Positions 15,777-33,466 of a stretch of 48,075 nt of DNA are shown in pieces. The notes under the pieces are model-generated. The model was not told the origin of the DNA and ran no database searches. It worked only from the letters and a program-made list of their open reading frames with translations. A program made the translations under genes and the position numbers. Origin of the DNA: Clostridia bacterium (GTDB taxonomy: Bacteria > Bacillota > Clostridia > TANB77 > CAG-465); assembly GCA_036645795.1 (NCBI GenBank), contig JAVXNL010000004.1, forward strand, positions 1 to 48,075, given 5' to 3'. Each line of letters opens with the position of its first letter. Positions within the stretch are counted from its first letter, which is position 1.

Positions 15777-16229
15777 TTATATATCTCTTAATGTTCCTAC
15801 ACATTTTTTAACTGTAATTAAATGGCTAGTACTACCATTTTCAAACATTACAAATACAATTTCTCCATCATCTACTGATTTCTTGCAAAGTTCTACTAAA
15901 TTTCGAGATTTTTTTGATATTTTAAATTTTTCATTGCTAATTAAATATTCTATATATTCAACCATCTCTTCATCTGATACATCACTCTTTTTATACTCTA
16001 TTGTTTTTGTTATAACTCCATTTTCTGTAGAAATTCCTGTACTTATTACATCTTTTTTGCCTACTACTGTTTTAAGTGATGGAATTTTATCTGCTCCTAC
16101 TTTGTATTCATTAGAATTAGCTGTATTTGAAACCGCAACTTTTATTCCAACTATCGCAATTATTGCAAGTACTGCAACAATTGCTACTATTATTAAAAGT
16201 ACTTTTAAAAACTTTTTGATAACTCTCAC
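15777..16229 (-). CDS. Small N-terminally anchored protein, paralog of 22392-22835 (function unknown)
   Basis: It aligns with the 22392 gene: KKFLKVLLIIVAIVAVLAIIAIVGIKVAVSNTANSNEYKVGADKIPSLKTVVGKK versus KKFLKIFFIIIGVIATLIIALIIGLKVISSNTTNADEYKMGEDLIPSLKAVVGKR. The start codon is uncertain; see the finding at 16218-16240. Confidence 0.6.
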   Translation of the reverse strand: MRVIKKFLKVLLIIVAIVAVLAIIAIVGIKVAVSNTANSNEYKVGADKIPSLKTVVGKKDVISTGISTENGVITKTIEYKKSDVSDEEMVEYIEYLISNEKFKISKKSRNLVELCKKSVDDGEIVFVMFENGSTSHLITVKKCVGTLRDI

Positions 16230-16250
16230 CTCCTTTTATATAGTAATTTT

Positions 16251-16697
16251 TTACTGTAACAACTTATTTTTTTTAAAAGAATATGGTATCTCATCATCTT
16301 TTACCTCTATATTGTCACCATTTCTCCTATATACAGCTATATACCCTGCATTATATGTTACTACTCTTCCTGAATCACCATATTCTATACTTTTTATTCC
16401 TTGTAATTCTTGAATAAGTTGTCCATGATTTTTTCCTTGATAATCAAATCCTATTCCATTTTTCTTATCCTCTTCAAAACTTTTAGCTGCATTAAAATTA
16501 GAATTATAATTTGGATCTGTTTTATATAAAGTGTTATTTTGAATTTCTCCATTAGACCCAATAGAATCTATATTTTTTGTGGCAAATTTATTTTTTTTAA
16601 TCACAAAAGAAACAATTACTACAAGAATTACTAATACCACTAAAGCTCCTATTATAATTAGCCATGCAAGTTTTGATTTTTTATTTTTTTTTGCCAT
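16251..16697 (-). CDS. Small N-terminally anchored protein (function unknown)
   Basis: 148-aa ORF with SD GGAGGA 7 nt upstream of the ATG. It has a basic N-terminus plus one TM segment (LAWLIIIGALVVLVILVVIVSFVI). It is tightly packed in the operon. Confidence 0.6.
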   Translation of the reverse strand: MAKKNKKSKLAWLIIIGALVVLVILVVIVSFVIKKNKFATKNIDSIGSNGEIQNNTLYKTDPNYNSNFNAAKSFEEDKKNGIGFDYQGKNHGQLIQELQGIKSIEYGDSGRVVTYNAGYIAVYRRNGDNIEVKDDEIPYSFKKNKLLQ

Positions 16698-16724
16698 ATC
16701 TTATTCCTCCAAAACAAATATTTT

Positions 16725-19700
16725 TTATTCAAAATCATCTGCTGCTCTATTATCTAGATCAAATAAAGCTACTGTTCCTCTAATCTTTTCGTATTGCGCT
16801 TGACTTGTTATTCTAAACTCTCCATTTTCTAATTGTATCATTAGATTTTGATTGTCTGCAGTTTCACCAGCTTTTATTCCTAAATAACCTTCATAATCCC
16901 ATTCTGTTGTATTTATACTTTGCTGTCCTTGTTTTTCCTTATTTTTATCATTTATATTATATGAGACTCTAATTTTGCCATTTGTACCACTTACACAAAC
17001 GATATCAAATTTAACTCCAATATATCCGTTCTTTAATGGATTATTTATTGAACCACCACTACCAACAGCTATAGTTGAATTAGGTAATTTAAATTCTCCA
17101 AACCAAGTTTGAATAAATTTATTATCACTATATGCCATCATATTATCAGTTATTTCAAACTTTTTACTAATATCTAATGACTCTAATTTATTTGACATAT
17201 CCTCAGTTATTGGTGTATCAGAAACACTTGCTAAATATCTATATCCATCATTTGGCTTAAATGACATTGCATAACCACTATCTTTGAACTTTTTATATTT
17301 ACCCTTTGAATCTTTATAATATAATTCTATATTATCTTTAAATTCTCCTGATTTTGATACATAATAGTATGAAGGTTTTATTTCTATTCTTCTTTTGTCT
17401 TCTTTTTTATTTACTGATTTAGAATCATACATTCCACTTGTTTTAAGATCAAAACTTATTCTATATCCCATCTTAGGTGCTTGTATATATTGACCCGATA
17501 CATGTTTGTATGGTCCAAGTGGCATTATTTTTCTTATTGAACTATTAGGCACATATATATCATCTCTATCTGTTATTGTATTTATATCTTCAGTATAAAT
17601 TTTTAACCTTTTAACTCCTGAGAAATAAACATTTCCTGTTAAATCATTTACTTTATTATTTGAACTTGGCTTCTTAAATACATCCTTAAAGTTTAGATCT
17701 GTACTATCTGTTATTTTAAAATCGTACACCCTTCCTATACTATCAGTTTGTACTTGATTTCTAATAAAATAGTATGCATCTTGTGCCATACTTGTATATG
17801 TAAGTGATGTTTTTGCAGAAAGATCACTATGCATTTTTTTTGTAACCTCACTTGGATTACATACGTTTTGTGATGTTAGCTCAACTGGCCAGTTTATAGT
17901 TTTTGCATTATTTATATATTTAGTTGTATTTATTGTATTCGCCGTATCTTTTAATATTTTGCTTTCTTGATTTAGTATTTCTTTTTGTAATATATAGTCA
18001 TTTAAATCCGTTTCCGGCATGTTTTTTGATACGCCAACTATAACTAACCTATTGGATGAATTAGATATATAATCAACATTTTGTTGATCTGAGGTAGCTT
18101 TAGCACTAAATTTGGTAGTTCCATTTGAGCTCTTTACTATTTTTATAGGAATACCTCTATCTATTTTTTCATTAGCCCTAATGGTTGATTCTTTTCCAGT
18201 ATTTAAATCTCTTATTATTGTAGGGACAGTAGTTATTATATCAAAATCAAACATTAAGTAATAATAATCTAAGAAGAATTCATTTGTATTTAATCCTGTA
18301 TAAATCATACTAGAGTTTACTGGCTTTTCAATATTTACATCAAAATTAGCATTTTTTTGTATTACATTATTTATATTAGTAGAACTATCCTCTGTGTGAT
18401 TAACTATTGTATCTGAGGATACTGTTACTTTACCCATTTGTAAAGGAGTATACACATCTACAAATCTTTTATTTTTTGTATCTACATTCTTTTTTACAGA
18501 AGATGTGATATTTTTAAGGACGTCATATTCTACATATGTAGCTATTCCTGAACCTTGTCTTAATCCATTATATCTATTCATTGGTATATTGTACCAACTA
18601 TTAAAGTCAGCTCTTTTTGTTATATTTTGATTCCCTTTTGTACCAAAGTTTTTTTCTATTTCATCCTCAGTTGGTAATACTTTTACAAGTTTATAATAGT
18701 TGTTTGTTATACTTTGAATCTCATCATCAAATTGTTTTGTTAAGTTAAGTACAACCCCATTTCCATTTCCTACAAATAAAGTAGCTCTATCATTTATTGA
18801 GCCAATAATCCTTCCTTTTGCACTTTTTTCAGGATCAGATTTGTTATTATATTCGCCATTAGTTAACTTATTTACTACAAAATTTGTTAACTGATATTTA
18901 CCATAATTTGGTTTTGTAGGATCGCCTTGTAAATCATATTTTAAATTTTGTAAACAAAATTTTGGTGCCGTTATATATGGTTGTATATCCCTATTTGACG
19001 GTGTGAATATAGTCTCACATGGATTACCAGTTGAAGAAGCTGAATAGTCTTTGCTAAATATGTTTATATCTGGTATTGGTTCAGGTAGTGTTGTTTTGGA
19101 ATAAAAACATACCACTACTGTATAATCGTCAGAACCACTTAAAGGTGTTCCTGTTTTTACATAAGATGTACTTGAATCATAGAAATTTCCTGATAAAGCA
19201 ATATTATTCTCAGCACTAAAAAGTGATGTTCCTTTAGCTGTCATTGCACCTTTATATTCATATTTTTGGCCGGCCAATGCATAAGTCGTTGATCTTGATA
19301 TTTGCATAACACTCTTCGGTCTATACCTATAAAATTCTGGATAGTTATCTCTTAGTGGCGATCCATCAGGCGCTCTTCCATTTGGTGCACTCATTGCTAT
19401 ATTAGATAACACTCTTATTTTATCACTTACCCAACCAGGATTGTCTAGAGCATTTAACATTTCTATTTGTTTATCACTTGCTATCTTGTCTAGTGATAAT
19501 TTACTTTTGTATGTTTTACCTAAATTTTTTACCTGCGCTGGATCATTCATGTTTACATCAGTTACATCTACATGTTTTACATATACTTTTCTTTTAGGTA
19601 GATCTAGTGGTACACTATAGCTTTTATATACTGGAGTATTGTATGGAAATACAGCACAAAATCTTTGTGAAGCAGGAAGCTCTTCTTTTGATACCTTAGA

Positions 19701-20276
19701 TGTTCCATCTCCTAGTTTTCCACCCTCATCTTGATATGAATATATTCCCCCTGAAATTCCACTAGTAGTAGATGTAAATTTCAAATCTATTGCTGGCTTT
19801 TTCTCATCCGTGTTTACCCAAAAATATATTTCATTTCCATTTCTTTCCATTGTACAATTGACGCCATTTGTTACTTCAACATTTACACCAGTAGTACAAT
19901 TAGTTGCATTTATTTTTAATGGGCCAATTCTTACCTTACTTCCATCAGCATTAAGAACTTGTGTTGTTTTATCAAACTGAATGTCTATTGAAGCAGCTGA
20001 TGTATTTACATCACTAGGATTCGCTCTAGCAGCATTAGCAATCCTTGTTGCATCTGCTAATATATTTGCACCTACATTGGTATTTGGCAACCCTATATTA
20101 TCCATAATGCTTTTTGTCTTTAGCTTGCCTATAAAGCCGACCTCCCTGTTGTATATCCCATAAAGCAAATTGTGATGCATAATGTTGACCTGCAGCATGA
20201 TAGCCCCAACCTTCTTCATCAGTAAATCCATAATTATTCCAACCTGTAGGTCCATTAATTTGTGGAAATGCCGCAA
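16725..20276 (-). CDS. Giant secreted surface protein, C-terminal ~1127 aa of a frame-interrupted gene (paralog of 22972-26520)
   Basis: This long ORF is homologous to the 22972 gene from about VYVKHVD onward, with identical C-terminal blocks such as YVPNSSIRKI.PLGPYKHVSGQYIQAPKMGYRISFDLKTSG and GTVALFDLDNRA. It has no signal peptide of its own. Its first ~57 codons overlap the 20098-20601 ORF in another frame and are probably not translated. Confidence 0.8.
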   Translation of the reverse strand: MRHFHKLMDLQVGIIMDLLMKKVGAIMLQVNIMHHNLLYGIYNREVGFIGKLKTKSIMDNIGLPNTNVGANILADATRIANAARANPSDVNTSAASIDIQFDKTTQVLNADGSKVRIGPLKINATNCTTGVNVEVTNGVNCTMERNGNEIYFWVNTDEKKPAIDLKFTSTTSGISGGIYSYQDEGGKLGDGTSKVSKEELPASQRFCAVFPYNTPVYKSYSVPLDLPKRKVYVKHVDVTDVNMNDPAQVKNLGKTYKSKLSLDKIASDKQIEMLNALDNPGWVSDKIRVLSNIAMSAPNGRAPDGSPLRDNYPEFYRYRPKSVMQISRSTTYALAGQKYEYKGAMTAKGTSLFSAENNIALSGNFYDSSTSYVKTGTPLSGSDDYTVVVCFYSKTTLPEPIPDINIFSKDYSASSTGNPCETIFTPSNRDIQPYITAPKFCLQNLKYDLQGDPTKPNYGKYQLTNFVVNKLTNGEYNNKSDPEKSAKGRIIGSINDRATLFVGNGNGVVLNLTKQFDDEIQSITNNYYKLVKVLPTEDEIEKNFGTKGNQNITKRADFNSWYNIPMNRYNGLRQGSGIATYVEYDVLKNITSSVKKNVDTKNKRFVDVYTPLQMGKVTVSSDTIVNHTEDSSTNINNVIQKNANFDVNIEKPVNSSMIYTGLNTNEFFLDYYYLMFDFDIITTVPTIIRDLNTGKESTIRANEKIDRGIPIKIVKSSNGTTKFSAKATSDQQNVDYISNSSNRLVIVGVSKNMPETDLNDYILQKEILNQESKILKDTANTINTTKYINNAKTINWPVELTSQNVCNPSEVTKKMHSDLSAKTSLTYTSMAQDAYYFIRNQVQTDSIGRVYDFKITDSTDLNFKDVFKKPSSNNKVNDLTGNVYFSGVKRLKIYTEDINTITDRDDIYVPNSSIRKIMPLGPYKHVSGQYIQAPKMGYRISFDLKTSGMYDSKSVNKKEDKRRIEIKPSYYYVSKSGEFKDNIELYYKDSKGKYKKFKDSGYAMSFKPNDGYRYLASVSDTPITEDMSNKLESLDISKKFEITDNMMAYSDNKFIQTWFGEFKLPNSTIAVGSGGSINNPLKNGYIGVKFDIVCVSGTNGKIRVSYNINDKNKEKQGQQSINTTEWDYEGYLGIKAGETADNQNLMIQLENGEFRITSQAQYEKIRGTVALFDLDNRAADDFE

Positions 20277-20601
20277 TCAAGTTTCCTGCTAGAGGTGACT
20301 CATACTTTAATACATGCGCTCCTAGCCATAATATTTTACCCTCATCAAGACAATATGCATTTAAAGTCTGATTATTATGTGGAAATGTTGTCTCATATAC
20401 TTCTTTTACTACCTCTTTATCACCATTTTCATAGTAAAACCACTTAGCAGTCGGTCCAGAACTTGTTATTGTAATTGTATCAGGCATTCCATTCGGAGCA
20501 CAATAACTTATATTTAGTGTAGTTATAAATCCTATAACTAATAAAAAAATAGCTACAACGTTTAATTTAAACTTATTATTTTTAAATTTCATATATCTCA
20601 T
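20098..20601 (-). CDS. Signal peptide plus N-terminal part of a thioester domain; 5' fragment of the frame-interrupted giant gene
   Basis: 167-aa ORF with SD AGGAGAG upstream and a signal peptide (FKLNVVAIFLLVIGFITTLNI). Cys84 in NAYCLDEGK (nt 20350-20352) and Gln144 in ASQFALWD (nt 20170-20172) parallel AYCMDYG and TQLALW in the 343-4920 adhesin. The ORF stops only ~23 codons after the Gln, which is too early for a complete thioester domain. Confidence 0.75.
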   Translation of the reverse strand: MRYMKFKNNKFKLNVVAIFLLVIGFITTLNISYCAPNGMPDTITITSSGPTAKWFYYENGDKEVVKEVYETTFPHNNQTLNAYCLDEGKILWLGAHVLKYESPLAGNLIAAFPQINGPTGWNNYGFTDEEGWGYHAAGQHYASQFALWDIQQGGRLYRQAKDKKHYG

Positions 20602-20609
20602 ACTCTCTC

Positions 20610-22184
20610 CTACTCTCTTTCTTGAATCTTTATGCCTAAATCTAATTTACTAAATACACATTCATATACTGAAGATTCCATTAAATATAACGAACTAGAT
20701 GTGCCTGACTTACTAAGTATTACATCCGCATATATCAAATATTTATCTTTATCGTATACTACATCCGCATTTTTAGGAGCTATTGAGTATGTTAAGTCGT
20801 TATATATTAAATTTTTATCTGTATTTGAATATTTTATTTCAAACTCAAGTTTTACTCTTGCTCTATAGTATATTCCATCGTAGTATACTATAGGCATTTG
20901 AGTCGTAGCAGTTCCTGCAAGTTTTATTTTATTTTGCTTTACATAGTCTACATATTTTTGTACTTCTTGTATATTTGATCCAAGTAATAAATAATCAGTT
21001 AAACTCTCAGAAAAGCTGTTTGCCTCTATTGTTTCATAGTCTATATTTAATAATTTATTATAATAATTTTCCACATTATACTTTATTTGATCATATACTT
21101 GCTTATCACCTGCATATACTTGTTTAGGAGTTTTCATATCTTTAGAGTTTTTTATAAACCTGTCCATTTCATATACCTTTTTATCAATACTTGCTAAGGT
21201 ATATGGATAATCTGCTACATTACTTGGCATTTTATCTGCACTAATATTTAATTTTTCACCTTGTGGCGCTATAGTGTTGTATTTCTCAACATAATTTTTT
21301 ATTATTTCATTTACTTGCCCTTTAATTACTTTTTTATCTAATTTCATATTTTTTGCATTTATACTAACTATTTTATTATATACCATATCTGCAACAGCTA
21401 TTTGTTCATCAGGCTTTAGTGATGTATAATCCTTTACGTTAGGAACTATATCAGTATCTAATTTTTTGTCTAGTATTTTTGTTTTAGCATTAGTAAAATA
21501 TCTTAAAACATCAGAATATGTGGCTTCCTCTTTATAATTATTTTTATTTATTTCTTCTTTTGCTATTACTCCTATATATTGTCCATATTCGACCCACATT
21601 TGATTTTTATATTCTTCTTTTTCAAGCTCTTTTGCAACACCTGTAATATCATTTGTATTTAAAGCAGTAGCAATTGCCATTTTTACGGCTTCTGATTTTG
21701 TTATACTCTCACCAGTATTTGCAGTACTATTATCATACGCTTTATCAAAACCATACATAATAATTTCTTTTTCAAAAGGAATATATGCTTTATATCCAAA
21801 ATATGTTAGCACCTTATATATTCCAAAAATCATTACAATTGCAAAAATAATAACAACAGGTATAATTATCATATTTTTTTTTGCTTTTTTGTCCTTTTTC
21901 TTTTTTATTGATACACCATTAATATTATCTTTATTATTAGAATCTTTTTCTTCATTATCCTTTTTTACATATGCAGGTACTATCTTTTGTTTGTTTTTGT
22001 TAGAAACTTCATCGATAGTACTTTTGTTTTTTAAATTAGTATCCTTATTTAGTTGTACACTTTCAACCGATTTTTTTTGCAAATCTTCTACATTTTCTTT
22101 TACGCTTTTATCTAAAATATTATTATTATTATTTTCTTCTGTTGCTTTTATTCCTTTGTTTTTATTATCCTTAATTTCCAACAT
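20610..22184 (-). CDS. Single-pass membrane protein with a K/N-rich cytoplasmic head and a ~390-aa external domain; paralog of 26522-27964
   Basis: 524-aa ORF with SD GAGGTGA upstream and TM segment MIIIPVVIIFAIVMIFGIYKVL. It aligns with the 480-aa paralog, for example ITKSEAVKMAIATALNTNDITG versus VTKSEALKMAIVASLNENDITN. Function unknown. Confidence 0.65.
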   Translation of the reverse strand: MLEIKDNKNKGIKATEENNNNNILDKSVKENVEDLQKKSVESVQLNKDTNLKNKSTIDEVSNKNKQKIVPAYVKKDNEEKDSNNKDNINGVSIKKKKDKKAKKNMIIIPVVIIFAIVMIFGIYKVLTYFGYKAYIPFEKEIIMYGFDKAYDNSTANTGESITKSEAVKMAIATALNTNDITGVAKELEKEEYKNQMWVEYGQYIGVIAKEEINKNNYKEEATYSDVLRYFTNAKTKILDKKLDTDIVPNVKDYTSLKPDEQIAVADMVYNKIVSINAKNMKLDKKVIKGQVNEIIKNYVEKYNTIAPQGEKLNISADKMPSNVADYPYTLASIDKKVYEMDRFIKNSKDMKTPKQVYAGDKQVYDQIKYNVENYYNKLLNIDYETIEANSFSESLTDYLLLGSNIQEVQKYVDYVKQNKIKLAGTATTQMPIVYYDGIYYRARVKLEFEIKYSNTDKNLIYNDLTYSIAPKNADVVYDKDKYLIYADVILSKSGTSSSLYLMESSVYECVFSKLDLGIKIQERE

Positions 22185-22243
22185 ATCACCTCAATTATTG
22201 TCATATAAAAATATAACAATTCCTTTTATTTCCTATACTTTAT

Positions 22244-22272
22244 ACTATACTATAAACAAAAATTTAAGTCAA
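22244..22272 (-). promoter_or_regulatory. Possible SigA-type promoter for the second module (TTGACT - 17 - TATAGT on the minus strand)
   Basis: The reverse complement of 22267-22272 is TTGACT and that of 22244-22249 is TATAGT, with a 17-nt spacer. It lies just downstream of the terminator at 22325-22360. Confidence 0.4.
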
Positions 22273-22324
22273 TATATTTCTGTTAATTTCTATAAAAAAA
22301 GTAAATACTCTTTGGCTTTCAAAA

Positions 22325-22360
22325 AGAACAGGCATGTTTTAAATAACGCCTGTTCTTTTT
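22325..22360. terminator. Rho-independent terminator after the first module
   Basis: 9-bp GC-containing stem agaacaggc (22325-22333) / gcctgttct (22348-22356). It is flanked by A5 and T5 runs, so a T-run follows the stem on the minus strand. Confidence 0.75.
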
Positions 22361-22391
22361 ATTTTAATTCTTTATATTTTTAAAAAGTATC

Positions 22392-22835
22392 TTAATATAC
22401 TTTTAACTCTCCCACGCCTTTTTTTATAGTAAATACATATTCATTTGCTATCTTTTCAAATGTCATCATTATAATTTTTCCTGAATCGACTGATTTTTTA
22501 CTAATTTCTACTTTAGTGCCATTATTTTTTGTTATAAAAAAATTTTCGTTTTCAACTAAATAACCCATATATTTATTTACATCACTACCAGCTGTAGTTT
22601 CTGTTTTATATTTTATTTCTTTGGTTGTTATTCCATTTTCTACAGAAGCACCTATACCAGAGACTTGCCTTTTACCAACTACAGCTTTAAGAGATGGTAT
22701 TAAATCTTCTCCCATTTTATATTCATCTGCATTAGTCGTATTTGATGAAATAACCTTTAATCCTATTATTAATGCTATTATTAAAGTTGCAATAACACCT
22801 ATTATTATAAAAAAAATCTTTAAAAACTTCTTCAT
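22392..22835 (-). CDS. Small N-terminally anchored protein, paralog of 15777-16229 (function unknown)
   Basis: The maximal ORF reaches TTG 22850. ATG 22835 is preceded by GGGGGTGA plus 5 nt and matches the paralog's N-terminus (MKKFLKIFF). Confidence 0.65.
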   Translation of the reverse strand: MKKFLKIFFIIIGVIATLIIALIIGLKVISSNTTNADEYKMGEDLIPSLKAVVGKRQVSGIGASVENGITTKEIKYKTETTAGSDVNKYMGYLVENENFFITKNNGTKVEISKKSVDSGKIIMMTFEKIANEYVFTIKKGVGELKVY

Positions 22836-22971
22836 AAGTTTCACCCCCAAACTTCACGAAATATATTTTATTAATAACTTGTTTTCTTGTTTTTATATTT
22901 TCAATATGTAGAGGTATTAATAGATATCTCTACATATTGCTTAATTTTTAAAATACAATTCCTTATTTATA

Positions 22972-25900
22972 TTATTCAAAATCATTTGCTGCCCTATTAT
23001 CCAAATCAAATAGTGCTACAGTTCCTTTTATTTCATTATATTTTGCTTGGTCAGTTATTTTCCATTCAGCATTTTCAAGTGGTATTATAGCCATATTAGA
23101 TGGACTTACAGCTTCTCCTGATTTTATTCCAAGATAGCCTTCATAATCCCACTCTGTTGTATTAGTTATTTCTTTTTTATCTTTATCTCTATTATTTTGA
23201 TTATAGCTAATCTTTACTTTTCCATCTTTTCCACTAACTGCTACTAAATCAAATTTAACTCCTATATACCCATTTTTTAATGGGTTATTTATTGAGCTTC
23301 CAAACCCACCAACAGCTACTGTTGAATTAGGTAACTTAAATTCTCCATACCATGCTTGTATAAATTTATTATCGCTAGAACTCATCATCTCTTTTGTTAA
23401 ATCAAATGACTTGCTTATATTTATAGTCTCAAGTTTATCAGACATTGTTTTTAAATCTGATGCTTCTTTGTTATATATTGAGCGATATCCATCATTTGGT
23501 TTGAAAGATATTTTATATCCACTATCTTTAAAGTTTTTATATTTGCCTGATTCATCTTTATAATATAAATCAACTTTTGATGAGTACTGTGAGCCATCTT
23601 TTGATATATAGTAATAGCTTGGTGTAACAACTATTTTTCTTTGAGTTTGTGCATTTTCTGCATTATATACTCCACTAGTCTTTAAATCAAAACTTATTCT
23701 ATATCCCATCTTTGGTGCTTGTATATACTGTCCTGATACATGTTTGTATGGTCCAAGTGGTATTATTTTTCTTATTGAACTATTAGGTACATATATATTG
23801 TCTCTACTAGTTAAAGTATTTATATCATCTGTGTACACTTGCAATGCTTTTACACCAGAGTAATATACATTTCCTGTTAATGCATTAACAGCTGCCCCAC
23901 TAGATTCTTTTCTAAATACATCTTTAAAATTTACATCTGTACAATCTGTTACTTTAAAGTCATATATTCTACCAATATTTTCTGTTACTACAGTAGTTTT
24001 TGCATAATAATAAGCATCTTGTACCATGTTTTTGTATTCTAAAGTCGTACCAAAATCTCCGTGATTTTTCTTTCTTTCAACTTTTGAATTACATACATCT
24101 TTTTCAAGTTTTTCTGGCCAATTATATAGTATGCTGCCATTATTTATATATTTTCTTGTAGTAGTAGATGATATTTTGCCTTCTAAATATCCTGATTCTT
24201 GTGATATGATTGCATTAGTAAGTGCCGCGTCTGGTACGTTATATGAAGCAGCAATTACCGTTATACTACTAGATATCTGATCTACTATATCACCTGTAGT
24301 TTTATTATTTGTTGCTTTTCCTGTAAAAGTTGCCGTTCCATCTGGATTTTTTTCAACTCTAATAGCATTGCCTTTTGCAATAATTTCTCCAACACCTTTT
24401 ACTACGTCCGCGTTACCAACTCTTACTCTTGTAGGTACTACTAACTGCACATCTAAATTAAATACTAAATAATAACAATCGATATATTTTGCAGTATTTA
24501 AGTTAGGATATATCTGTGCATTTCCTGCTTTACCTACTGAGACTGTAAAATCTGCATTTTTTTGTAATATATTACTACTACTAGCCCCAGATGTTGTATG
24601 ATCTATTATGTCACTTGATTTTATATTTACAGTGCCAATAGTTACCGGTGTATATACATTTACATATTTTCTATTTGCTGTATCATATACTTTTTTATCT
24701 AAGCTATCTGAACCATTTAGCAAATTATATTCTGAGTATACAGCAGCGCCTTTAGCTTGTCTTATTCCATTGTATTTATCGTAAGGTACATTATATTGTG
24801 TTTTAAAATTATCTTTATTTGTATAGTTTGATTTATTTTTAACCCCTAAGTCTTTATCAATTTGGTCCTGTGTTGGAAGTGATGAAACATTTGCATATTT
24901 TGTATTTTTAAGTTTCATAGCCTCATCATTGAACGTGTTATTTAAATTTGTAAGCTCTAATGGAAAATCATTACTTCTTCCATCTGGCAAATTATTAAAT
25001 ATAGTTGTTCTTTCCGGCCCTATTATTCTACCTTGTATTCCTTCATCTGGTGAAGTATTATTTGCAAATCTACCTGCTTGTAATTTATACATTACAAAAT
25101 CTGATAAAACAAATCTTCCATCTTGAGTTATCTCATACTTTAGATTTTTTAAATAATATTTTGGCGTTACTATATATGGTTTTATATTTTCCCCTGAAGG
25201 AGTATATGTAGTGTCACATCCGTCTGTTCCTATCTTACCATTGTATAACGCCTCAGTTTGTACTTCTGGTGTTGGCGGAACTACATCATCTACATCATAA
25301 TAGAAATCTATAAGTGTCACATCTGCTTTATTAGTTGTTGGAGTTGTGGTACTAGTTGATGTAAAATTAACTGTTTTATTTCTATCGTTTATATTATTTC
25401 TTGCACTTTCAATACTCTCTGCTGTTGTTCTTTTTCCTTCTATTAGTTTATATTCTTTTCCATCTTGTGCATACAGCCTATATCTACTAGCTTCTAAATT
25501 TTGGCTTATTTTTATTTTATAGTACTCACTATAAAGACCTGCATTTGGATTCTCATCTCCTAGTTTTTTTGATCTATTACCAGCCTTGTCTATTAATACT
25601 TGCTGTGGATCTGAGACTGGAATTACTTCTCCTGTCTTTTTATTAAAATGTCTTACGTAGACTTCACGAGGTTTCATTTCAGCGGTAGGTATTACTAAAT
25701 TATTATCATACATATTTGCAGCAGAAGCTCCCGCTTTCCAAGTTCCTCCATCTGATGCGTTCCAAGCCTCATCTTCTACAAACCCTCTAAATCCTGCGTT
25801 CCAAGCGCCTACACCTGAATAATATATCTTCCATGCAGTGTCCATATCAAGGTGATAACCAGCATAACCTGACCACTCATTACCATATCTACTATCAGCT

Positions 25901-26520
25901 TGACTTACATTAAACGAAAAAATTATATTCATATTTCCGTTTTCATCTATTCTCCCTGGATACTTAGCTATAATTTCATTTACTTTATCACTTCTTACTT
26001 CCCAATCAGTCACTTTTACGCCATCAGATGTTACTTTCCATTTTTTACTTACAACACCGTCACCTACATTAATACGCATTTCATTTGCAAAATTTGCAGG
26101 TTCGGATTGCTTTTGTGCAATCTGTGTCCAATGACCACTAAAATTGTTAAAATTCGCTGTATCGGTAGTAATGCTAGTACTACTAGAATCAAAATATATA
26201 TTAGTATCACCACCAGAATAGTTAGATACTACATTCGTATGTAGTATTAATTGCTTATTTGAAAAATATCCTTTTCCTCCAGTAGTATCTGGCTTTGAAG
26301 TAAGCCAATTAGGCGAGTTTCCTTCATATTCTTTCATTGCTTGTCCACTAGCTTGTACAACTTCTCTTATTGTTAAAATATATCCATCCCCAGATGGTTC
26401 TACTTTTGTTACATAATTTAATCCATAACCATATATATCTTTAGATAAAACTATTGCTAACAAAAACATAATAAAAGTGATAATAATATTTCTAGAATTT
26501 ATTCTTTTTATTATTTCCAT
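22972..26520 (-). CDS. Giant secreted surface protein (~1182 aa), paralog of the 16725-20601 gene; no LPXTG
   Basis: ATG 26520 is preceded by AAAGGTGG plus 8 nt; the track ORF starts at an in-SD GTG at 26532. It has a signal peptide (NIIITFIMFLLAIVLSKDIYG) and a W/G/Y-rich N-terminal region. A MucBP-like strand REVYVRHFNKKTGEVIP follows. The C-terminal ~450 aa are highly similar to the paralog. Confidence 0.8.
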   Translation of the reverse strand: MEIIKRINSRNIIITFIMFLLAIVLSKDIYGYGLNYVTKVEPSGDGYILTIREVVQASGQAMKEYEGNSPNWLTSKPDTTGGKGYFSNKQLILHTNVVSNYSGGDTNIYFDSSSTSITTDTANFNNFSGHWTQIAQKQSEPANFANEMRINVGDGVVSKKWKVTSDGVKVTDWEVRSDKVNEIIAKYPGRIDENGNMNIIFSFNVSQADSRYGNEWSGYAGYHLDMDTAWKIYYSGVGAWNAGFRGFVEDEAWNASDGGTWKAGASAANMYDNNLVIPTAEMKPREVYVRHFNKKTGEVIPVSDPQQVLIDKAGNRSKKLGDENPNAGLYSEYYKIKISQNLEASRYRLYAQDGKEYKLIEGKRTTAESIESARNNINDRNKTVNFTSTSTTTPTTNKADVTLIDFYYDVDDVVPPTPEVQTEALYNGKIGTDGCDTTYTPSGENIKPYIVTPKYYLKNLKYEITQDGRFVLSDFVMYKLQAGRFANNTSPDEGIQGRIIGPERTTIFNNLPDGRSNDFPLELTNLNNTFNDEAMKLKNTKYANVSSLPTQDQIDKDLGVKNKSNYTNKDNFKTQYNVPYDKYNGIRQAKGAAVYSEYNLLNGSDSLDKKVYDTANRKYVNVYTPVTIGTVNIKSSDIIDHTTSGASSSNILQKNADFTVSVGKAGNAQIYPNLNTAKYIDCYYLVFNLDVQLVVPTRVRVGNADVVKGVGEIIAKGNAIRVEKNPDGTATFTGKATNNKTTGDIVDQISSSITVIAASYNVPDAALTNAIISQESGYLEGKISSTTTRKYINNGSILYNWPEKLEKDVCNSKVERKKNHGDFGTTLEYKNMVQDAYYYAKTTVVTENIGRIYDFKVTDCTDVNFKDVFRKESSGAAVNALTGNVYYSGVKALQVYTDDINTLTSRDNIYVPNSSIRKIIPLGPYKHVSGQYIQAPKMGYRISFDLKTSGVYNAENAQTQRKIVVTPSYYYISKDGSQYSSKVDLYYKDESGKYKNFKDSGYKISFKPNDGYRSIYNKEASDLKTMSDKLETINISKSFDLTKEMMSSSDNKFIQAWYGEFKLPNSTVAVGGFGSSINNPLKNGYIGVKFDLVAVSGKDGKVKISYNQNNRDKDKKEITNTTEWDYEGYLGIKSGEAVSPSNMAIIPLENAEWKITDQAKYNEIKGTVALFDLDNRAANDFE

Positions 26521-26521
26521 A

Positions 26522-27964
26522 CTAGTTACCACCTTTCTGCTGCATAATACCAGAATCTTCTTTGTTTAATAACAAATTATATATTGCATTTTGACTTATA
26601 TATAAAGTATTAGTTCCTATTGCGTTTGACATACTTACATCTATATATATGGTATACTTGTCATTTTCATATACTATTTTATCTCTTTGTAATAAATCTT
26701 GGAATAATAGATTTTCCTTTGTATTTGAATTTTTAATTTCAAATGTAAGTTTCATTCTTACTTTATATACAGATCCATCATAGTATATTGCAGGAATTTG
26801 TGCTGTTGCTTTTCCTTCTATTTTAATTTTATTTTCTTTAACATAATCTACATACTTTTGATAATTTTCATCGGTATCATTTACAAGTACATATTTTTTC
26901 ATTTCTTTTTTCATAGCATCTTTATCTATAGTTGTATAATCTACATTTAGTATATTATTAAAATATGATTCTGATATATATTTCATACTAGCAAATAAAT
27001 CTTTATTTTTTCTATATAATTCTTTAGGATTTATAAACGTTTTATTATCGTTTATATTAAATGGTATTTCATATGCACTCTTATCTACCGTTGCAAGTGT
27101 ATATGGATACACCCCTGCATTACTAGGTATTTTTTCTGGATTTATGTTTAATTTTTCGCCAGCAAGTGCAATTGTAGAATATTTATTAACATAATTTGTA
27201 ATAATTTCATTTACTTGTCCTTTAAATACGTAATGTTTTCCATTTATTTTTTTTGTATTCTCTACAATTAATTTATTATAAATAATATCATCTATTGCTA
27301 TTTTTTCATCTGGAGTATACATTTCATAATCTTTTAGCGATGCATGCTCTGATGTGTCTAGTGTCTTTCCTAATATTTTTAATTTTGCGTTTGAAAAATA
27401 TCTTATAACCTCAGCGTATGTTACTTTATCTTGGGCATTAGCTTTATTTATCTCATCTTTATTTATAATACCTGCTCTTAGAGCATAGTCTACCCATATT
27501 GCATTTTTATAGTCCTCTACTGGTTTATCTATATAATTTGTTATATCATTTTCATTAAGAGATGCTACAATAGCCATTTTTAACGCTTCTGATTTTGTAA
27601 CTTTTTGCCCTGTTTTTGAACTACTGTTATCATACATAATATCAAAGCCATATACTTTCATACTATCTTCATATTTAAAGTAGTTTTTATATTTTAAATG
27701 ATAAACTAGTTCATATACCCCAAATCCAATAGCTGCTATGCAAAGAATTCCAAGTAATATAAACAATATACTAAGTTTGGATTTAAAAATCTTTTTCTTA
27801 CCACTAGATGAACCATTTTTATCATGTTTTCCATGCTTTTTATTTGACACCTTATTTTCTTTTGCATAAGATGGTATTATCTTTTTTTTGCTATTATCTT
27901 CTAGATTAGATTTGTTTTCAATAACACTCTTTTTTTCATTTACATTATCTTTTTGATTCTTCAA
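26522..27964 (-). CDS. Single-pass membrane protein with a K/N-rich cytoplasmic head and a large external domain; paralog of 20610-22184
   Basis: 480-aa ORF with a TTG start preceded by AGAGGAGG and TM segment LSILFILLGILCIAAIGFGVYELV. Its stop (TAG, 26522-26524) is 1 nt from the next gene's ATG, which suggests translational coupling. Confidence 0.65.
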   Translation of the reverse strand: MKNQKDNVNEKKSVIENKSNLEDNSKKKIIPSYAKENKVSNKKHGKHDKNGSSSGKKKIFKSKLSILFILLGILCIAAIGFGVYELVYHLKYKNYFKYEDSMKVYGFDIMYDNSSSKTGQKVTKSEALKMAIVASLNENDITNYIDKPVEDYKNAIWVDYALRAGIINKDEINKANAQDKVTYAEVIRYFSNAKLKILGKTLDTSEHASLKDYEMYTPDEKIAIDDIIYNKLIVENTKKINGKHYVFKGQVNEIITNYVNKYSTIALAGEKLNINPEKIPSNAGVYPYTLATVDKSAYEIPFNINDNKTFINPKELYRKNKDLFASMKYISESYFNNILNVDYTTIDKDAMKKEMKKYVLVNDTDENYQKYVDYVKENKIKIEGKATAQIPAIYYDGSVYKVRMKLTFEIKNSNTKENLLFQDLLQRDKIVYENDKYTIYIDVSMSNAIGTNTLYISQNAIYNLLLNKEDSGIMQQKGGN

Positions 27965-27978: not shown

Positions 27979-29175
27979 TTATGGATTACATATTGGACAA
28001 GGATAAAATCCTTTTATTGTTGTAGTAACTTTAGCTTTATCATTACCAGTTGTTAGTGAAGCTTCTGCTAAAGCTGCTGCCGCTTGTTTAGATGTTGTAT
28101 ATCTTGGTGATATACCCTCATGTATAGAAAGACTATACTCTGGACAATTTACATCCTTATGATATAAATTAGTTTTAAATTTAGAATTACCACTAGGAGC
28201 TGTCAAATAAAATCTTGTAACTAAATCAAGTTTTGACAAGCCATAAGCTTTTGAGTTTAAATATTTATTTCCAACTGATAGCCCTTGTACAAATGCCATC
28301 ATTCCAATATTGTCTATACTTGAGTTTATATCAGCTGTAGTTGTTGGTGGAAATGAGAAATTATAACTAATTCCTGCAGATTTTGCATATGAATTATTTG
28401 CATTTACTGCATATCCCATTTCTGCTATAACCGAATCTGCTATGACAACCTGTCTTTTTTGATTCAAATTATTTACTATAGTAGTTGCAATTCCTGCATC
28501 ATTATCGTATAAATCTTTGTTATTTATACTGTCTCCAATATAAAAAGACTTAACTTGATAACTTTCTTTTCTACCACCATTTCCATAATACATACCTCTA
28601 TGTACTATATAATCATCTAATGAAAAATCAATTGTATGTGTAGAAACAATATTATTTCCTGTTAAAACGCCTTCTTCTATAGTTTTATTACTACCATCTT
28701 TTTTTATAGAATACGAGTATGTATAGTATCTTTTTGGTTTTAAAGCATGTTGCATTAAATCATTACCACTATTATCTTTAAAAGTCTCTATTGATGATAC
28801 CTGTACCCCATTATAGTCAATTATTGCAATTGCTGGGATGAACATTTGCAAATAATGCTCTGCATTTGCATTTCCTTTTATGCCAAGATTATTATATAAC
28901 GAATTTAAAAATGTATCTACTGCTACTTGTGCATTTACACTTACTTTTTTATCTGTAGAACCAGAATATCCATAATCTATATCTTGATCAGAGTTTTCTA
29001 CTTCTTTCATTTGGTTTGCTGCGTCTTGAGCTGCTGAATTTATTATTTTATTATAATACATTTCTTGCTCTTGTGCTTTTATTGTAAAAGATACATTTAC
29101 ATACACTGTTATAATCATTGGGAGTATTACTCCTATAAATATTAGTGCAAAGTCAGTTAATTTCAAATTTTTCAC
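27979..29175 (-). CDS. TadE/TadG-like pseudopilin-type protein with a C-terminal Ada-like zinc-binding motif
   Basis: The N-terminus KLTDFALIFIGVILPMIITVYVNVSF resembles the TadE N-terminal hydrophobic segment. The C-terminus LYHKDVNCPEY...(~45 aa)...GFYPCPICNP matches the pattern YH....C ... G(F/Y)xPCxxCxP. The start may be the TTG at 29166 (SD GGGGTGA) rather than the GTG at 29175. Confidence 0.55.
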   Translation of the reverse strand: MKNLKLTDFALIFIGVILPMIITVYVNVSFTIKAQEQEMYYNKIINSAAQDAANQMKEVENSDQDIDYGYSGSTDKKVSVNAQVAVDTFLNSLYNNLGIKGNANAEHYLQMFIPAIAIIDYNGVQVSSIETFKDNSGNDLMQHALKPKRYYTYSYSIKKDGSNKTIEEGVLTGNNIVSTHTIDFSLDDYIVHRGMYYGNGGRKESYQVKSFYIGDSINNKDLYDNDAGIATTIVNNLNQKRQVVIADSVIAEMGYAVNANNSYAKSAGISYNFSFPPTTTADINSSIDNIGMMAFVQGLSVGNKYLNSKAYGLSKLDLVTRFYLTAPSGNSKFKTNLYHKDVNCPEYSLSIHEGISPRYTTSKQAAAALAEASLTTGNDKAKVTTTIKGFYPCPICNP

Positions 29176-29238: not shown

Positions 29239-29634
29239 TTAAGGACCTACGTAAGTGATTTTTGCATATCCACTTCCATATCTTAGACCACTTTTAGTTT
29301 GAGTATTACTAAGTGTGTATGTAGAATGTCCACCAACATAGCCTGAACCGCCAGCGCCTCCACTATTAAATGAAACTCCTGCGCATCCGCCCCAGTAGCC
29401 GCCACCGCCGCCACCTATATCTGTAGCTTCAGTAACATTTTGGCCATAAAATACTGAATTTCCACTATTTTGAGTTCCAGGCTTTATACGGTCATCTAAA
29501 CCAATCAGTTCCCAAGGGTTATATGTAGTTCCTCTTTCACCAGATAGGCCACCACCGTCTCCACCAGAACCATCATCAATTTCACCTGCATTTTCTCCGC
29601 GTAATATTATCAGAACCACCGCCGCCGCCAGCAA
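29239..29634 (-). CDS. 3' fragment (glycine-rich domain continuation) of a frame-interrupted TadE-like gene
   Basis: This ORF has no SD or signal of its own. Its sequence GSGGDGGGLSGERG...GGGGGGYWGGCAGVSFNSGGAGGSGYVGG continues the glycine-rich domain that begins in 29582-31309. Confidence 0.65.
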   Translation of the reverse strand: MLAAAVVLIILRGENAGEIDDGSGGDGGGLSGERGTTYNPWELIGLDDRIKPGTQNSGNSVFYGQNVTEATDIGGGGGGYWGGCAGVSFNSGGAGGSGYVGGHSTYTLSNTQTKSGLRYGSGYAKITYVGP

Positions 29635-31309: not shown

Positions 31310-31401
31310 AAAATTATATTCCCCCTCAATTTTTAGATATTATTACTATTTTTTTACATCTACTAGCTTTTAATTTTCTTAACTTTTATATAAAGTTTGT
31401 A

Positions 31402-31845
31402 TTAAGACTTAGGTGTTATTGTTACCCTTGCAATTTTTTTGCCTTTCGCATCTACGTTTTCTGATTCATATCTTAAAACATACTCTCCTGTACCAATTGC
31501 ATCTTTTGCTTGTTCATAATTTAATGTTGAAGCTAAAGCACCATGTCTACCAGTTATGGTTAAATTATATCTATTTGTCATATTATCTGCCGAAGAAACA
31601 GAGTACATATCTTTTTGAACATAATTAAAATAGTATGAAATTACTTCAGATGGACTTAATGTTATTACATTATCTACTGGTATATTTTCAATTATTGCTT
31701 TATCTGATTTCACATTACCAAATTCATATGCTTTCTCAGCCAATGTTCCAACTGATGTAAATAAATATATAGTTCCTGTAAGTGCTATTATAAATATAAA
31801 AATATATACCCCTGTGTATATTGATTCATAAGACGAATCTTCCAT
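31402..31845 (-). CDS. Short pilin-like protein with an N-terminal hydrophobic helix (minor pilin candidate)
   Basis: 147-aa ORF with a strong SD AGGAGGTGA. The N-terminus is MEDSSYESIYTGVYIFIFIIALTGTIYLF, followed by a small globular part containing SPSEVISYYFNYV, which is similar to its neighbours. Confidence 0.55.
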   Translation of the reverse strand: MEDSSYESIYTGVYIFIFIIALTGTIYLFTSVGTLAEKAYEFGNVKSDKAIIENIPVDNVITLSPSEVISYYFNYVQKDMYSVSSADNMTNRYNLTITGRHGALASTLNYEQAKDAIGTGEYVLRYESENVDAKGKKIARVTITPKS

Positions 31846-31874
31846 AACTTCACCTCCTTTTTATTTATGTATTA

Positions 31875-32264
31875 CTATCTTGAAAAGTTAATTCTAGTCA
31901 TATCTTTTTGTCTTACTACTGTTGCGTTATATGTTGCAACTAAAGCGCCTGCGTTTTTTTGACCATTAACCTCAGCTTGCATTTTATCAATTGCGCCTGC
32001 TCCAGAAGCTCCTGACACACTAACTACTACTCTTGTATTGCTTCTATATTTTTTTAATGCATTTAAAACTTCAACTGACGTTTTTTTAGTATTTTCATAA
32101 GCATCAAATTCATTAAACTCACCAGTTATAGAATTATGTGTTTCATATACATGTTTATATATTTTTTGTATCTGCCCCAGGCTAAAGAATATCCCAGAGG
32201 TTATAACTATCGTTACAAATATTGCTGCTGCAATTGTTATAGCTTTATTAGACATTACATCCAA
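31875..32264 (-). CDS. Short pilin-like protein (class-III-signal-like N-terminus)
   Basis: 129-aa ORF with a TTG start preceded by AGGTAGGTGAG. The N-terminus is MDVMSNKA-ITIAAAIFVTIVITSGIFF, and it has the shared downstream motif TSVEVLNALKKY. Confidence 0.6.
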   Translation of the reverse strand: MDVMSNKAITIAAAIFVTIVITSGIFFSLGQIQKIYKHVYETHNSITGEFNEFDAYENTKKTSVEVLNALKKYRSNTRVVVSVSGASGAGAIDKMQAEVNGQKNAGALVATYNATVVRQKDMTRINFSR

Positions 32265-32283
32265 GATATCTCACCTACCTTCT

Positions 32284-33432: not shown

Positions 33433-33466
33433 ATTACCCTCCTTTAATTTCTATATACTTTTACTT

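What the first reader, a model, noticed from the sequence alone, without database searches (positions are those of the whole stretch)
15777..27964. Duplicated three-gene surface module downstream of the pilus genes
Two consecutive sets of genes have the same order. Each has a single-pass membrane protein with a K/N-rich cytoplasmic head (26522-27964; 20610-22184), a giant secreted protein (22972-26520; 16725-20601) and a small N-anchored protein (22392-22835; 15777-16229, plus the extra 16251-16697 gene). The giant proteins have signal peptides but no LPXTG, choline-binding or other recognisable anchor. Retention or display therefore probably depends on the co-encoded membrane partners or on the upstream filament. 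A terminator (22325-22360) and a promoter-like site (22244-22272) separate the two modules. None of the three protein families is recognisable to me.
Basis: partly seen in the sequence, partly recalled or inferred. Interest (0 to 1): 0.75.

Follow-up and report, generated by a model that had tools for sequence, protein, structure and literature searches.

The report
Anchor-plus-giant pair ending a pilus operon
The duplication is real: its conserved core is a membrane protein with a cell-wall-binding-like fold paired with a huge secreted protein, an undescribed tail of the Tad-like pilus gene cluster of the uncultured gut clade TANB77, and it most likely holds a fast-evolving surface protein on the cell.

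Summary
The tandem duplication is real. The three gene pairs are paralogs at 44-46% amino-acid identity. Two corrections apply. The second giant gene is split by a frameshift into 167-aa and 1151-aa ORFs, identically in four MAGs. The small N-anchored genes have no detectable relative anywhere else I looked.

The conserved unit is two genes, a membrane protein followed by the giant, with only a 1-15 nt gap or a short overlap (often 1 nt). In 37 of 39 species genomes with enough flank it sits directly after the pilin-like genes of a Tad-like cluster. The upstream 12 genes match, by size and order, a cluster published for the gut order TANB77 (PMC11680825). That paper does not mention the genes studied here.

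A confident AlphaFold model shows the membrane protein as a disordered cytoplasmic tail, a TM helix, an SLH-like triple repeat and an NTF2/VirB8-like domain. Paralogs in other genomes fuse this last domain to Pfam-recognised SLH domains.

The giant family has 460 clusters, no Pfam or PDB relative, a conserved ~850-aa beta-rich C-terminal core and a variable N-terminus. Pairs have duplicated repeatedly within lineages.

My best reading is an in-trans wall anchor plus a displayed protein working with the pilus (confidence about 0.45).

The parts
26522..27964 (-). Anchor 1 (480 aa). Residues 1-57 form a disordered K/N-rich cytoplasmic tail with a conserved K-[IF]-[IV]-P-[SA]-Y-x-K motif. A TM helix plus stalk spans 58-105. 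An SLH-like triple repeat covers about 105-275, and a PSNxxYPY segment plus an NTF2-like domain covers about 278-480.
   Evidence: AF2 model with pLDDT 85.7. Foldseek hits to SLH domains 3pyw/6bt4/7sv3 with prob 1.0, and weaker hits to IcmL-like, CagV and PrgL. Cytoplasmic motif seen in the 30-member alignment. 178 homologs.
22972..26520 (-). Giant 1 (1182 aa). It has a Sec-type signal peptide, a variable N-terminal ~290 aa and a conserved beta-rich core ending in GTVALFDLDNRAANDFE. Its ATG lies 1 nt after the anchor 1 stop codon.
   Evidence: No Pfam, NCBIfam, PHROG or PDB sequence match.
22902..22939 (-). Hairpin with 15 predicted pairs (a 17-bp inverted repeat) between giant 1 and small 1, with no U tract on the coding strand. 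It may be an mRNA processing or stability element.
   Evidence: dG -16 kcal/mol, z = -5.3. Sequence read.
22392..22835 (-). Small 1 (147 aa), N-terminally anchored and specific to this lineage.
   Evidence: 46% identical to small 2. No relative in other loci or metagenomes. Its cluster holds only the four sister MAGs.
22320..22361 (-). Intrinsic terminator that ends the long pilus-module 1 transcription unit.
   Evidence: dG -19.3 kcal/mol, z = -6.1. Sequence read.
22244..22272 (-). Sigma-70-like site TTGACT-17-TATAGT ahead of anchor 2.
   Evidence: 10 of 12 consensus positions match. Such matches occur at chance frequency in this AT-rich DNA, so only its position supports it.
20610..22184 (-). 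Anchor 2 (524 aa), a paralog of anchor 1.
   Evidence: 44% identity, E = 8e-129.
20098..20601 (-). Giant 2, 5' ORF (167 aa) carrying the signal peptide. It ends at a stop codon created by a frameshift.
   Evidence: Annotated separately in four MAGs.
16725..20276 (-). Giant 2, 3' ORF in the +1 frame. The shift lies between 20276 and 20098, and an A5 run at 20111-20115 is the candidate site. The gene is probably a pseudogene or in an OFF state.
   Evidence: 46% identical to giant 1 over 918 aa. Frame analysis. NCBI calls an 1151-aa protein without a signal peptide.
16251..16697 (-). Extra N-anchored 148-aa gene, unrelated to the small proteins and specific to this lineage.
15777..16229 (-). Small 2 (150 aa), a paralog of small 1.
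27979..29175 (-). p398, an N-anchored pilin-like protein with a Cys-rich C-terminus. It lies directly upstream of the (first) anchor gene in 37 of the 39 genome loci with enough upstream flank and is not duplicated in this window.
   Evidence: Homologs at median 52% identity in 40 loci.
29239..41174 (-). Upstream Tad-like cluster. It encodes a CpaB-like SAF protein, two cytoplasmic proteins, a CpaF-like ATPase, a 684-aa platform protein and pilin-like genes including dockerin- and glycine-rich-domain fusions. By size and order it corresponds to genes 927-938 of PMC11680825.
   Evidence: Pfam SAF, weak T2SSE, Dockerin and ALK_LTK_GRD hits. CpaF is the best solved relative, E = 1.6e-7. Paper read.

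Best explanation
The conserved unit is a two-gene anchor-passenger pair that forms the 3' end of the TANB77 Tad-like pilus operon.

The anchor inserts in the membrane with its lysine-rich tail in the cytoplasm. Outside, it presents an SLH-like module that engages the cell wall, and a C-terminal NTF2-like domain.

The giant protein is exported by Sec and has no anchor of its own. I propose that its conserved C-terminal core is captured non-covalently by the anchor's NTF2-like domain. In some species a second, secreted SLH-NTF2 paralog would also hold it. The variable N-terminal part would then project from the surface next to, or together with, the pilus, as an adhesin or host-contact protein.

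Tight gene spacing (1-15 nt or a short overlap, often 1 nt) suggests translational coupling that would keep the pair stoichiometric (inferred). Recurrent tandem duplication, rapid divergence and inactivation of one copy produce surface variants.

Shown here: paralogy, synteny, the anchor's fold, the SLH-fused paralogs, the rate gradient and the frameshifts. Inferred: wall binding, anchor-giant binding, the adhesive role and the functional link to the filament.
For: 1. Synteny. 37 of 39 species loci have p398 and pilin-like genes directly upstream of the anchor, and 38 of 40 have a giant directly downstream. The gap from the anchor stop to the giant start is 1 nt in the window and in L001, L006 and L008.

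2. Anchor structure. The AF2 model has pLDDT 85.7. The top Foldseek hits are the SLH domains of B. anthracis Sap and P. alvei SpaA (E = 3e-5, prob 1.0, TM 0.66-0.72 on the target). NTF2-like domains follow: IcmL-like, CagV/VirB8 and PrgL.

3. Paralogs. The same C-terminal domain (hhalign prob 99.6) is fused to Pfam-recognised SLH domains in secreted paralogs lying just after the giant in L002, L003, L037 and L051.

4. Giant family. It has 460 clusters, and the match to the conserved C-terminal core runs to the protein's C-terminus in nearly all of the 150 listed. The N-termini range from nearly absent (about 920-aa proteins) to more than 1500 aa. The protein is beta-rich, with only weak resemblance to multi-Ig adhesins.

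5. Rates. Median identity to the window falls from 85% for the ATPase and 66% for the platform to 42% for the anchor and 35% for the giant. This is the range of the extracellular pilin-like proteins.

6. Duplication. Pairs are also duplicated in L006, L009, L020/21/51 and L042. Paralogs within a genome are mostly each other's best hits.
Against: - No SLH match at sequence level. hhalign gives an in-register alignment but with only 4.5% probability. The canonical TRAE motif reads TKSE/TYAE.
- Nothing tests anchor-giant binding.
- The giant model is poor (mean pLDDT 58), so 'adhesin-like' rests on weak matches.
- The anchor's tail has a conserved cytoplasmic motif. That suggests coupling to the machinery, which is more than passive anchoring.
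- About a third of species have giants consisting of the core alone, so the core must have a function of its own.
- Stoichiometry is loose. Five loci have two anchors per giant, and L040 has an anchor without a giant.
- Two loci (L037, L044) carry the pair away from pilus genes.
Confidence: 0.45

Rival explanations
1. PilY1-type tip protein. The giant would be loaded onto the pilus tip by the preceding minor-pilin-like proteins (p129, p147, the glycine-rich fusion and p398). The membrane protein would be a tethered chaperone or docking factor that holds the giant at the machine until priming.
For: The giant is similar to PilY1 in size, in having a Sec signal, in pairing a conserved C-terminus with a variable N-terminus, and in its position at the end of the minor-pilin genes (the PilY1 properties are from general knowledge). 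The conserved cytoplasmic motif in the anchor tail suggests contact with the cytoplasmic machinery.
Against: There is no sequence or fold match to PilY1. The secreted SLH-NTF2 paralogs point to a stationary attachment in the wall. L037 and L044 carry the pair without pilus genes nearby.
Confidence: 0.2
2. Wall-spanning conduit. The anchor would oligomerise, as VirB8 or PrgL do. Together with the giant's conserved core it would form the passage or collar that lets the filament cross the thick wall. This would be a monoderm counterpart of the secretin complex.
For: The anchor has VirB8-like bitopic topology and an NTF2-like fold. The pair is present in nearly every cluster. The core-only giants (~920 aa) show that the core itself is the conserved function.
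Against: The pair evolves as fast as the exposed pilins and much faster than the machine. It is duplicated, pseudogenised and sometimes detached. The NTF2 matches are weak (E = 0.04-0.4).
Confidence: 0.12
3. Independent surface-layer or wall protein. It would merely share a conserved chromosomal neighbourhood with the pilus cluster and have no functional link to it.
For: Module 2 has its own terminator and promoter-like boundary. L037 and L044 have the pair elsewhere in the genome.
Against: Module 1 follows p398 by 14 nt with no terminator. The adjacency holds in 37 of 39 genomes while the downstream neighbour varies: spoIID, mbl or other genes.
Confidence: 0.1
4. Secreted toxin or effector, with the small membrane proteins acting as immunity factors.
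For: A large secreted protein is followed by small membrane proteins in this window.
Against: The variable part is N-terminal and the C-terminus is conserved, which is the reverse of polymorphic toxins. The small genes are absent from the other loci examined. No toxin or enzyme domain was found.
Confidence: 0.03

Closest known systems
TANB77 pilus gene cluster, genes 927-938 (PMC11680825, Nat Commun 2024)
   Same: The window's genes from 41174 to 29239 match it in order and size: CpaB-like 362 against 358 aa, 237 against 231, 271 against 280, ATPase 630 against 640, platform 684 against 693, followed by pilin-like genes. The 621-aa ortholog of the glycine-rich pilin-like gene in L003 equals the length of protein 938.
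   Different: The paper stops at gene 938 and never mentions p398, the anchor or the giant. Its cut-off of at least 80% similarity would miss proteins that are 35-52% identical.
SLH-domain wall anchoring (B. anthracis Sap/EA1, P. alvei SpaA)
   Same: The anchor shows a three-repeat SLH-like fold (Foldseek prob 1.0, TM 0.66-0.72 on the target). Paralogs in other genomes carry true SLH domains.
   Different: There is no Pfam SLH hit. The domain is tethered by a TM helix rather than secreted. The TRAE motif has diverged. The ligand is unknown.
Cellulosome anchoring scaffoldins (C. thermocellum SdbA/OlpB holding CipA)
   Same: The logic is the same: a very large secreted protein with no anchor of its own is held by a separate SLH-bearing protein (general knowledge).
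   Different: No cohesin or dockerin is present in the pair, and the proposed binding domain is NTF2-like. A dockerin does occur on a pilin-like protein of the same operon.
PilY1/PilC tip-associated adhesins of type IVa pili
   Same: Similar size, Sec signal, conserved C-terminus with variable N-terminus, and a gene placed with the minor pilins.
   Different: No beta-propeller and no sequence or fold match. The giant also has a dedicated membrane partner.
VirB8-family proteins (VirB8, CagV, PrgL, TcpC, DotI/IcmL)
   Same: Short cytoplasmic tail, one TM helix and an external NTF2-like domain.
   Different: The matches are weak (E = 0.04-0.4). An SLH-like module is inserted. The locus has no VirB4, VirD4 or relaxase.

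Membership tests
SLH domain (PF00395) proteins | Sequence match to the SLH profile | tested here: not met
   No SLH hit for anchor 1 or 2, or for any of 30 family members, at E <= 1. The PDB profile search found none.
SLH domain (PF00395) proteins | Three-repeat pseudo-trimeric fold | tested here: met
   Foldseek hits to 3pyw, 6bt4 and 7sv3: E = 3e-5 to 7e-4, prob 1.0, TM 0.63-0.72 on the target. The model has pLDDT 85.7.
SLH domain (PF00395) proteins | Conserved TRAE-type motif in each repeat | tested here: inconclusive
   TKSE, TYAE and KGQVNE occupy the equivalent helix starts. hhalign aligns them in register with TRAE, but with prob 4.5% and E = 0.009.
SLH domain (PF00395) proteins | Binding to pyruvylated secondary cell-wall polymer (CsaB-dependent) | not testable with these tools
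   This needs the whole genome (to look for csaB) and biochemistry.
VirB8-like T4SS components | Bitopic N-in topology with an external NTF2-like domain | tested here: inconclusive
   The topology fits. The fold matches to IcmL-like, CagV and PrgL have E = 0.04-0.14 and prob 0.66-0.99.
VirB8-like T4SS components | Encoded with VirB4/VirD4-type conjugation genes | tested here: not met
   No such domains were found in the window genes scanned.
Tad (type IVc) pilus system, for the neighbouring cluster | CpaF/TadA-family ATPase | tested here: met
   CpaF is the best solved relative, E = 1.6e-7 over residues 271-546. TIGR03819 matches at 1.2e-5, below its cut-off. Structural homology is reported in PMC11680825.
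Tad (type IVc) pilus system, for the neighbouring cluster | TadB/TadC (T2SSF) platform protein | tested here: not met
   No T2SSF or PDB match by sequence for 16 orthologs. The paper reports TadC/TadB similarity by structure only.
Tad (type IVc) pilus system, for the neighbouring cluster | Flp-type pilin and a prepilin peptidase in the locus | tested here: not met
   No Flp or TadE Pfam hit. No A24 peptidase in the window or in 54 loci. The pilin-like N-termini share a [KR][AS]-[IL]x[IV]G pattern instead.
PilY1/PilC tip adhesins | C-terminal beta-propeller (PilC/PilY1 domain) | tested here: not met
   No Pfam, PDB-sequence or Foldseek match to PilY1. The giant model is of low confidence, so this test is weak.
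Sortase-anchored (LPXTG) surface proteins | C-terminal LPXTG motif followed by a hydrophobic segment and a charged tail | tested here: not met
   No such motif near the C-terminus. The proteins end in ...DNRAA(N/D)DFE.

The most novel reading that the evidence does not exclude
p398, the anchor and the giant together would be the missing envelope-crossing and host-contact end of the TANB77 pilus. The SLH-like/NTF2 protein would form a wall-embedded collar coupled through its conserved cytoplasmic motif to the Tad motor, making it a monoderm substitute for the secretin complex. The giant would be the real host-facing component of a clade linked to immunotherapy response.
Probability: 0.15. Interest if true: 0.8.

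Novelty: new variant of a known kind. Interest (0 to 1): 0.6.

Why it matters
How type IV filaments of single-membrane bacteria cross the thick wall and display adhesins on it is poorly understood.

Here a Tad-like cluster carries, in nearly every genome examined, a dedicated protein with an SLH-like/NTF2 ectodomain and a giant partner. Both belong to unannotated families (at least 178 and 460 clusters).

The cluster belongs to TANB77, an uncultured gut order whose pilin-like protein was reported to enhance anti-PD-1 therapy in mice (PMC11680825). The fast-evolving, duplicated and sometimes switched-off giants are therefore obvious candidates for the host-contact surface. They were missed by that study's conservation filter.

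Tried and rejected
- **First giant search.** The word-indexed homolog search found only 4 hits, which wrongly suggested an orphan. A full HMMER profile search found 460 clusters. The first profile job failed because it had more than 1200 positions.
- **C-terminal query.** It returned mostly fragments and two chimeric proteins (P0145, P0153), which I disregarded.
- **Family and structure libraries.** Pfam, NCBIfam, PHROGs and PDB-sequence searches of the giants, of 30 long relatives in all (4, 26), and of the small proteins found nothing.
- **Foldseek on the giant model.** Against PDB and BFVD it gave only low-TM matches to generic beta-sandwich proteins.
- **'ParA/TadZ-like' label.** My initial label for 38494-39309 and 39309-40022 has no sequence support here. 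It rests only on the structural claims in the paper.
- **Toxin-immunity reading.** Rejected, because the variable end is the wrong one and the small genes are not conserved.
- **Programmed frameshift in giant 2.** Judged unlikely. The required shift is +1 on a run of only five A's. The equivalent break in L051 lacks the A5 run seen at that spot in L021.
- **Sporulation link.** I considered it because spoIID lies 37-600 nt downstream in many genomes. I did not pursue it, because the downstream neighbour varies.


Full report
**What is in the window**

All genes of the finding lie on the minus strand in a 28% G+C contig. In transcription order they are:
- anchor 1 (26522-27964, 480 aa)
- giant 1 (22972-26520, 1182 aa)
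- small 1 (22392-22835)
- anchor 2 (20610-22184, 524 aa)
- giant 2 (16725-20601)
- an extra 148-aa gene (16251-16697)
- small 2 (15777-16229)

The sporulation and housekeeping genes spoIID, an M23 peptidase, spoIIID, mbl and polC follow.

The three pairs are clear paralogs. The giants share 46% identity over 918 aa (E = 0.0), the anchors 44% (E = 8e-129) and the small proteins 46% (E = 3e-46). The giants' first ~300 residues do not align, and the extra gene is unrelated to the small proteins.

A strong hairpin at 22320-22361 (dG -19.3 kcal/mol, z = -6.1) running into a U tract separates the modules. The promoter-like site at 22244-22272 exists. Such matches are no more frequent here than in shuffled sequence, so only its position speaks for it. 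A second hairpin (22902-22939, z = -5.3) sits between giant 1 and small 1 and has no U tract.

**Corrections to the observation**

Giant 2 is not one ORF. A 167-aa ORF carrying the signal peptide (20098-20601) overlaps, in another frame, the 1183-codon ORF 16725-20276. The shift needed is +1, and an A5 run at 20111-20115 is the likely insertion site.

The same split is annotated in four NCBI MAGs (locus-tag prefixes RSE57, RSG48, RSD14, RSE00) and in a Logan assembly. It is therefore not a random assembly error. The window has the length of the RSE00 contig.

The glycine-rich pilin-like gene upstream (29239-31309) is also split in all four MAGs.

**How far the module is conserved**

A word-indexed search first suggested that the giant was nearly an orphan, with 4 hits. 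A full HMMER profile search found 460 cluster representatives at E <= 1e-3, of which 189 were at E <= 1e-30. They are 900-2746 aa long. In nearly all of the 150 listed, the match to the conserved ~850-aa core runs to the protein's C-terminus. The anchor has at least 178 homologs.

A scan of species-representative genomes gave 46 loci, all from uncultured Clostridia of animal and human guts. Mapping the window's proteins onto these and eight metagenomic loci showed one near-invariant order: ATPase, platform, pilin-like genes, p398, anchor, giant. This is often followed by spoIID.
- Of 39 loci with at least 3 kb upstream, 37 have p398 and the pilin-like genes directly upstream of the anchor.
- Of 40 loci with downstream flank, 38 have a giant. 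This count includes one giant that runs off its contig.
- L037 and L044 carry the pair away from pilus genes.

The small proteins and the extra gene have no relative in any of the 54 loci or in a JGI metagenome scan. The duplicated unit in this genome has three genes, but the conserved unit has two.

The anchor stop and the giant start are 1 nt apart here and in several other loci.

**The upstream cluster is already published**

PMC11680825 (Nat Commun 2024) describes a 12-gene cluster conserved in 122 of 129 species of the uncultured gut order TANB77. Its genes are:
- 927: CpaB-like, 358 aa
- 928 and 929: TadZ/CpaE-like by structure, 231 and 280 aa
- 930: TadA/CpaF, 640 aa
- 931: TadC plus TadB by structure, 693 aa
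- 932-938: pilin-like, with 938 being 621 aa

The window's genes between 41174 and 29239 match in order and size (362, 237, 271, 630 and 684 aa, then pilin-like genes). The L003 ortholog of the glycine-rich pilin-like gene is 621 aa. I infer that this is the same cluster. I could not compare sequences directly.

My own tests give:
- CpaF as the best solved relative of the ATPase (E = 1.6e-7)
- a SAF domain in the first gene
- no sequence-level T2SSF match for the platform
- no sequence support for the TadZ/CpaE labels
- no prepilin peptidase nearby

The paper never mentions genes beyond 938. Its filter of at least 80% similarity would exclude p398, the anchor and the giant, whose median identities to the window are 52%, 42% and 35%. 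The ATPase and platform are at 85% and 66%.

**The anchor**

An AlphaFold2 model built on 30 sequences is confident (mean pLDDT 85.7). It shows:
- a disordered cytoplasmic head (residues 1-57)
- one long helix (58-105) containing the TM segment
- three strand-helix repeats (around residues 121-136, 180-196 and 245-261)
- a C-terminal alpha+beta domain

The best Foldseek PDB matches are the SLH domains of B. anthracis Sap (3pyw, 6bt4) and P. alvei SpaA (E = 3e-5 to 7e-4, probability 1.0, TM 0.63-0.72 on the target). NTF2-like domains of IcmL-like, CagV/VirB8 and PrgL proteins follow at E = 0.04-0.14.

No sequence method recognises SLH. A targeted hhalign places TKSEA under TRAE, in register, but with only 4.5% probability.

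Independent support comes from paralogs. In L002, L003, L037 and L051, a secreted protein encoded just after the giant combines Pfam-recognised SLH domains (E = 1e-24 to 4e-11) with the anchor's C-terminal domain (hhalign probability 99.6).

The otherwise low-complexity cytoplasmic tail holds a conserved motif, K-[IF]-[IV]-P-[SA]-Y-x-K, in most of the 30 sequences (Pro and Tyr are at least 90% conserved).

**The giant**

No Pfam, NCBIfam, PHROG or PDB-sequence match was found for it or for 30 long relatives (4, 26).

The AlphaFold2 model is poor overall (mean pLDDT 58). It is acceptable for residues 640-790 and 940-1180, and it is mostly beta. Foldseek gives only low-TM matches to multi-domain adhesins and pilins such as CfaE/CfaB, AspA and antigen I/II. 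The viral library gave nothing meaningful.

There is no C-terminal TM segment and no sortase-type motif; the only loose-pattern match (LPNTN) lies at residue 63 of the giant-2 3' ORF. The family ends in a nearly invariant ...GTVxLxDLDNRAAxDFE.

About a third of species have giants of about 920 aa that consist of the core alone.

**Dynamics**

Anchor-giant pairs are also tandemly duplicated in L006, L009, L020/L021/L051 and L042. Five loci have two anchors per giant. Paralogs within a genome are mostly each other's best hits, so the duplications are lineage-specific.

In three of the lineages with two pairs (this window, L009 and L020/21/51), one giant copy is broken soon after its signal peptide.

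**Interpretation**

The best-supported reading is an in-trans anchor plus a displayed giant that works with the Tad-like pilus (confidence 0.45). The rivals are:
- a PilY1-like tip protein with a tethered loading factor (0.2)
- a wall-spanning collar (0.12)
- an unrelated surface protein that is merely syntenic (0.1)
- a toxin-immunity system (0.03)

Wall binding, anchor-giant binding and the adhesive role are all inferences.

**Novelty**

The pilus cluster is known. Its p398-anchor-giant tail, the SLH-like/NTF2 architecture of the anchor and the giant family are, as far as I could find in the literature searched, undescribed.

Noticed in passing
window 29239-31309 (-): The glycine-rich (ALK_LTK_GRD) pilin-like gene is split by a frameshift near 29600 into 575-aa and 126/131-aa ORFs. 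The split is identical in four MAGs. Two large surface genes of this operon are therefore broken in this strain.
   Followed up: partly
L009 1401-5136; L021 11218-15307; L051 6309-10455: In other genomes with two anchor-giant pairs, one giant copy is likewise interrupted shortly after its signal peptide. This points to recurrent inactivation, or ON/OFF switching, of one copy.
   Followed up: partly
window 27793-27964 (cytoplasmic tail of anchor 1; motif at about residues 27-34): A conserved K-[IF]-[IV]-P-[SA]-Y-x-K motif sits in an otherwise disordered, low-complexity tail, in most of 30 homologs. It could be a docking peptide for a cytoplasmic component.
   Followed up: partly
window 31402-34446 (-) and orthologs in L001-L054: Several of the short pilin-like proteins (pil134, p129 and pil135 orthologs) start with a shared [KR]-[AS]-[IL]-x-[IV]-G pattern that recalls archaeal class III signal peptides. 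No prepilin peptidase is present in the window or in any fetched flank.
   Followed up: partly
window 32284-33432 (-): A pilin-like protein carries two type I dockerin repeats. Its orthologs in other genomes carry Laminin_G_3 or glycine-rich modules instead, so these are modular pilins with swapped heads.
   Followed up: no
window 343-4920 (+): A 1525-aa protein with a thioester domain and 13 SpaA-type prealbumin-like repeats. It is a classical Gram-positive adhesin, encoded on the opposite strand.
   Followed up: no
window 5109-7001 (-) and 45472-47991 (-): A BspA-type leucine-rich-repeat protein and an 839-aa RCC1-repeat protein flank the region.
   Followed up: no
window 41240-41360 (-): After the PBP5-like gene there is a terminator-like hairpin, then TTGATT-17-TATACT ahead of the CpaB-like gene. 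This is a plausible start of the long pilus operon. It was read by eye only.
   Followed up: no
giant-spoIID spacers in L017, L025, L032, L029 and others: In many genomes spoIID starts only 37-100 nt after the giant gene on the same strand. In the window no hairpin separates small 2 from spoIID. Read-through into sporulation genes is possible.
   Followed up: no
P0145, P0153: Two database proteins fuse giant fragments in frame to a prepilin-peptidase N-terminus and to a DnaG primase. They are probably chimeric metagenome contigs.
   Followed up: no
L040 4659-9542 and 11334-17555; L045 downstream of the giant: Some loci add very large proteins (944-1627 aa) and smaller ones with a different N-terminus resembling a classical type IV pilin (…KKGISLI…). 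They lie next to the anchor, and in L040 they stand in place of a giant.
   Followed up: no
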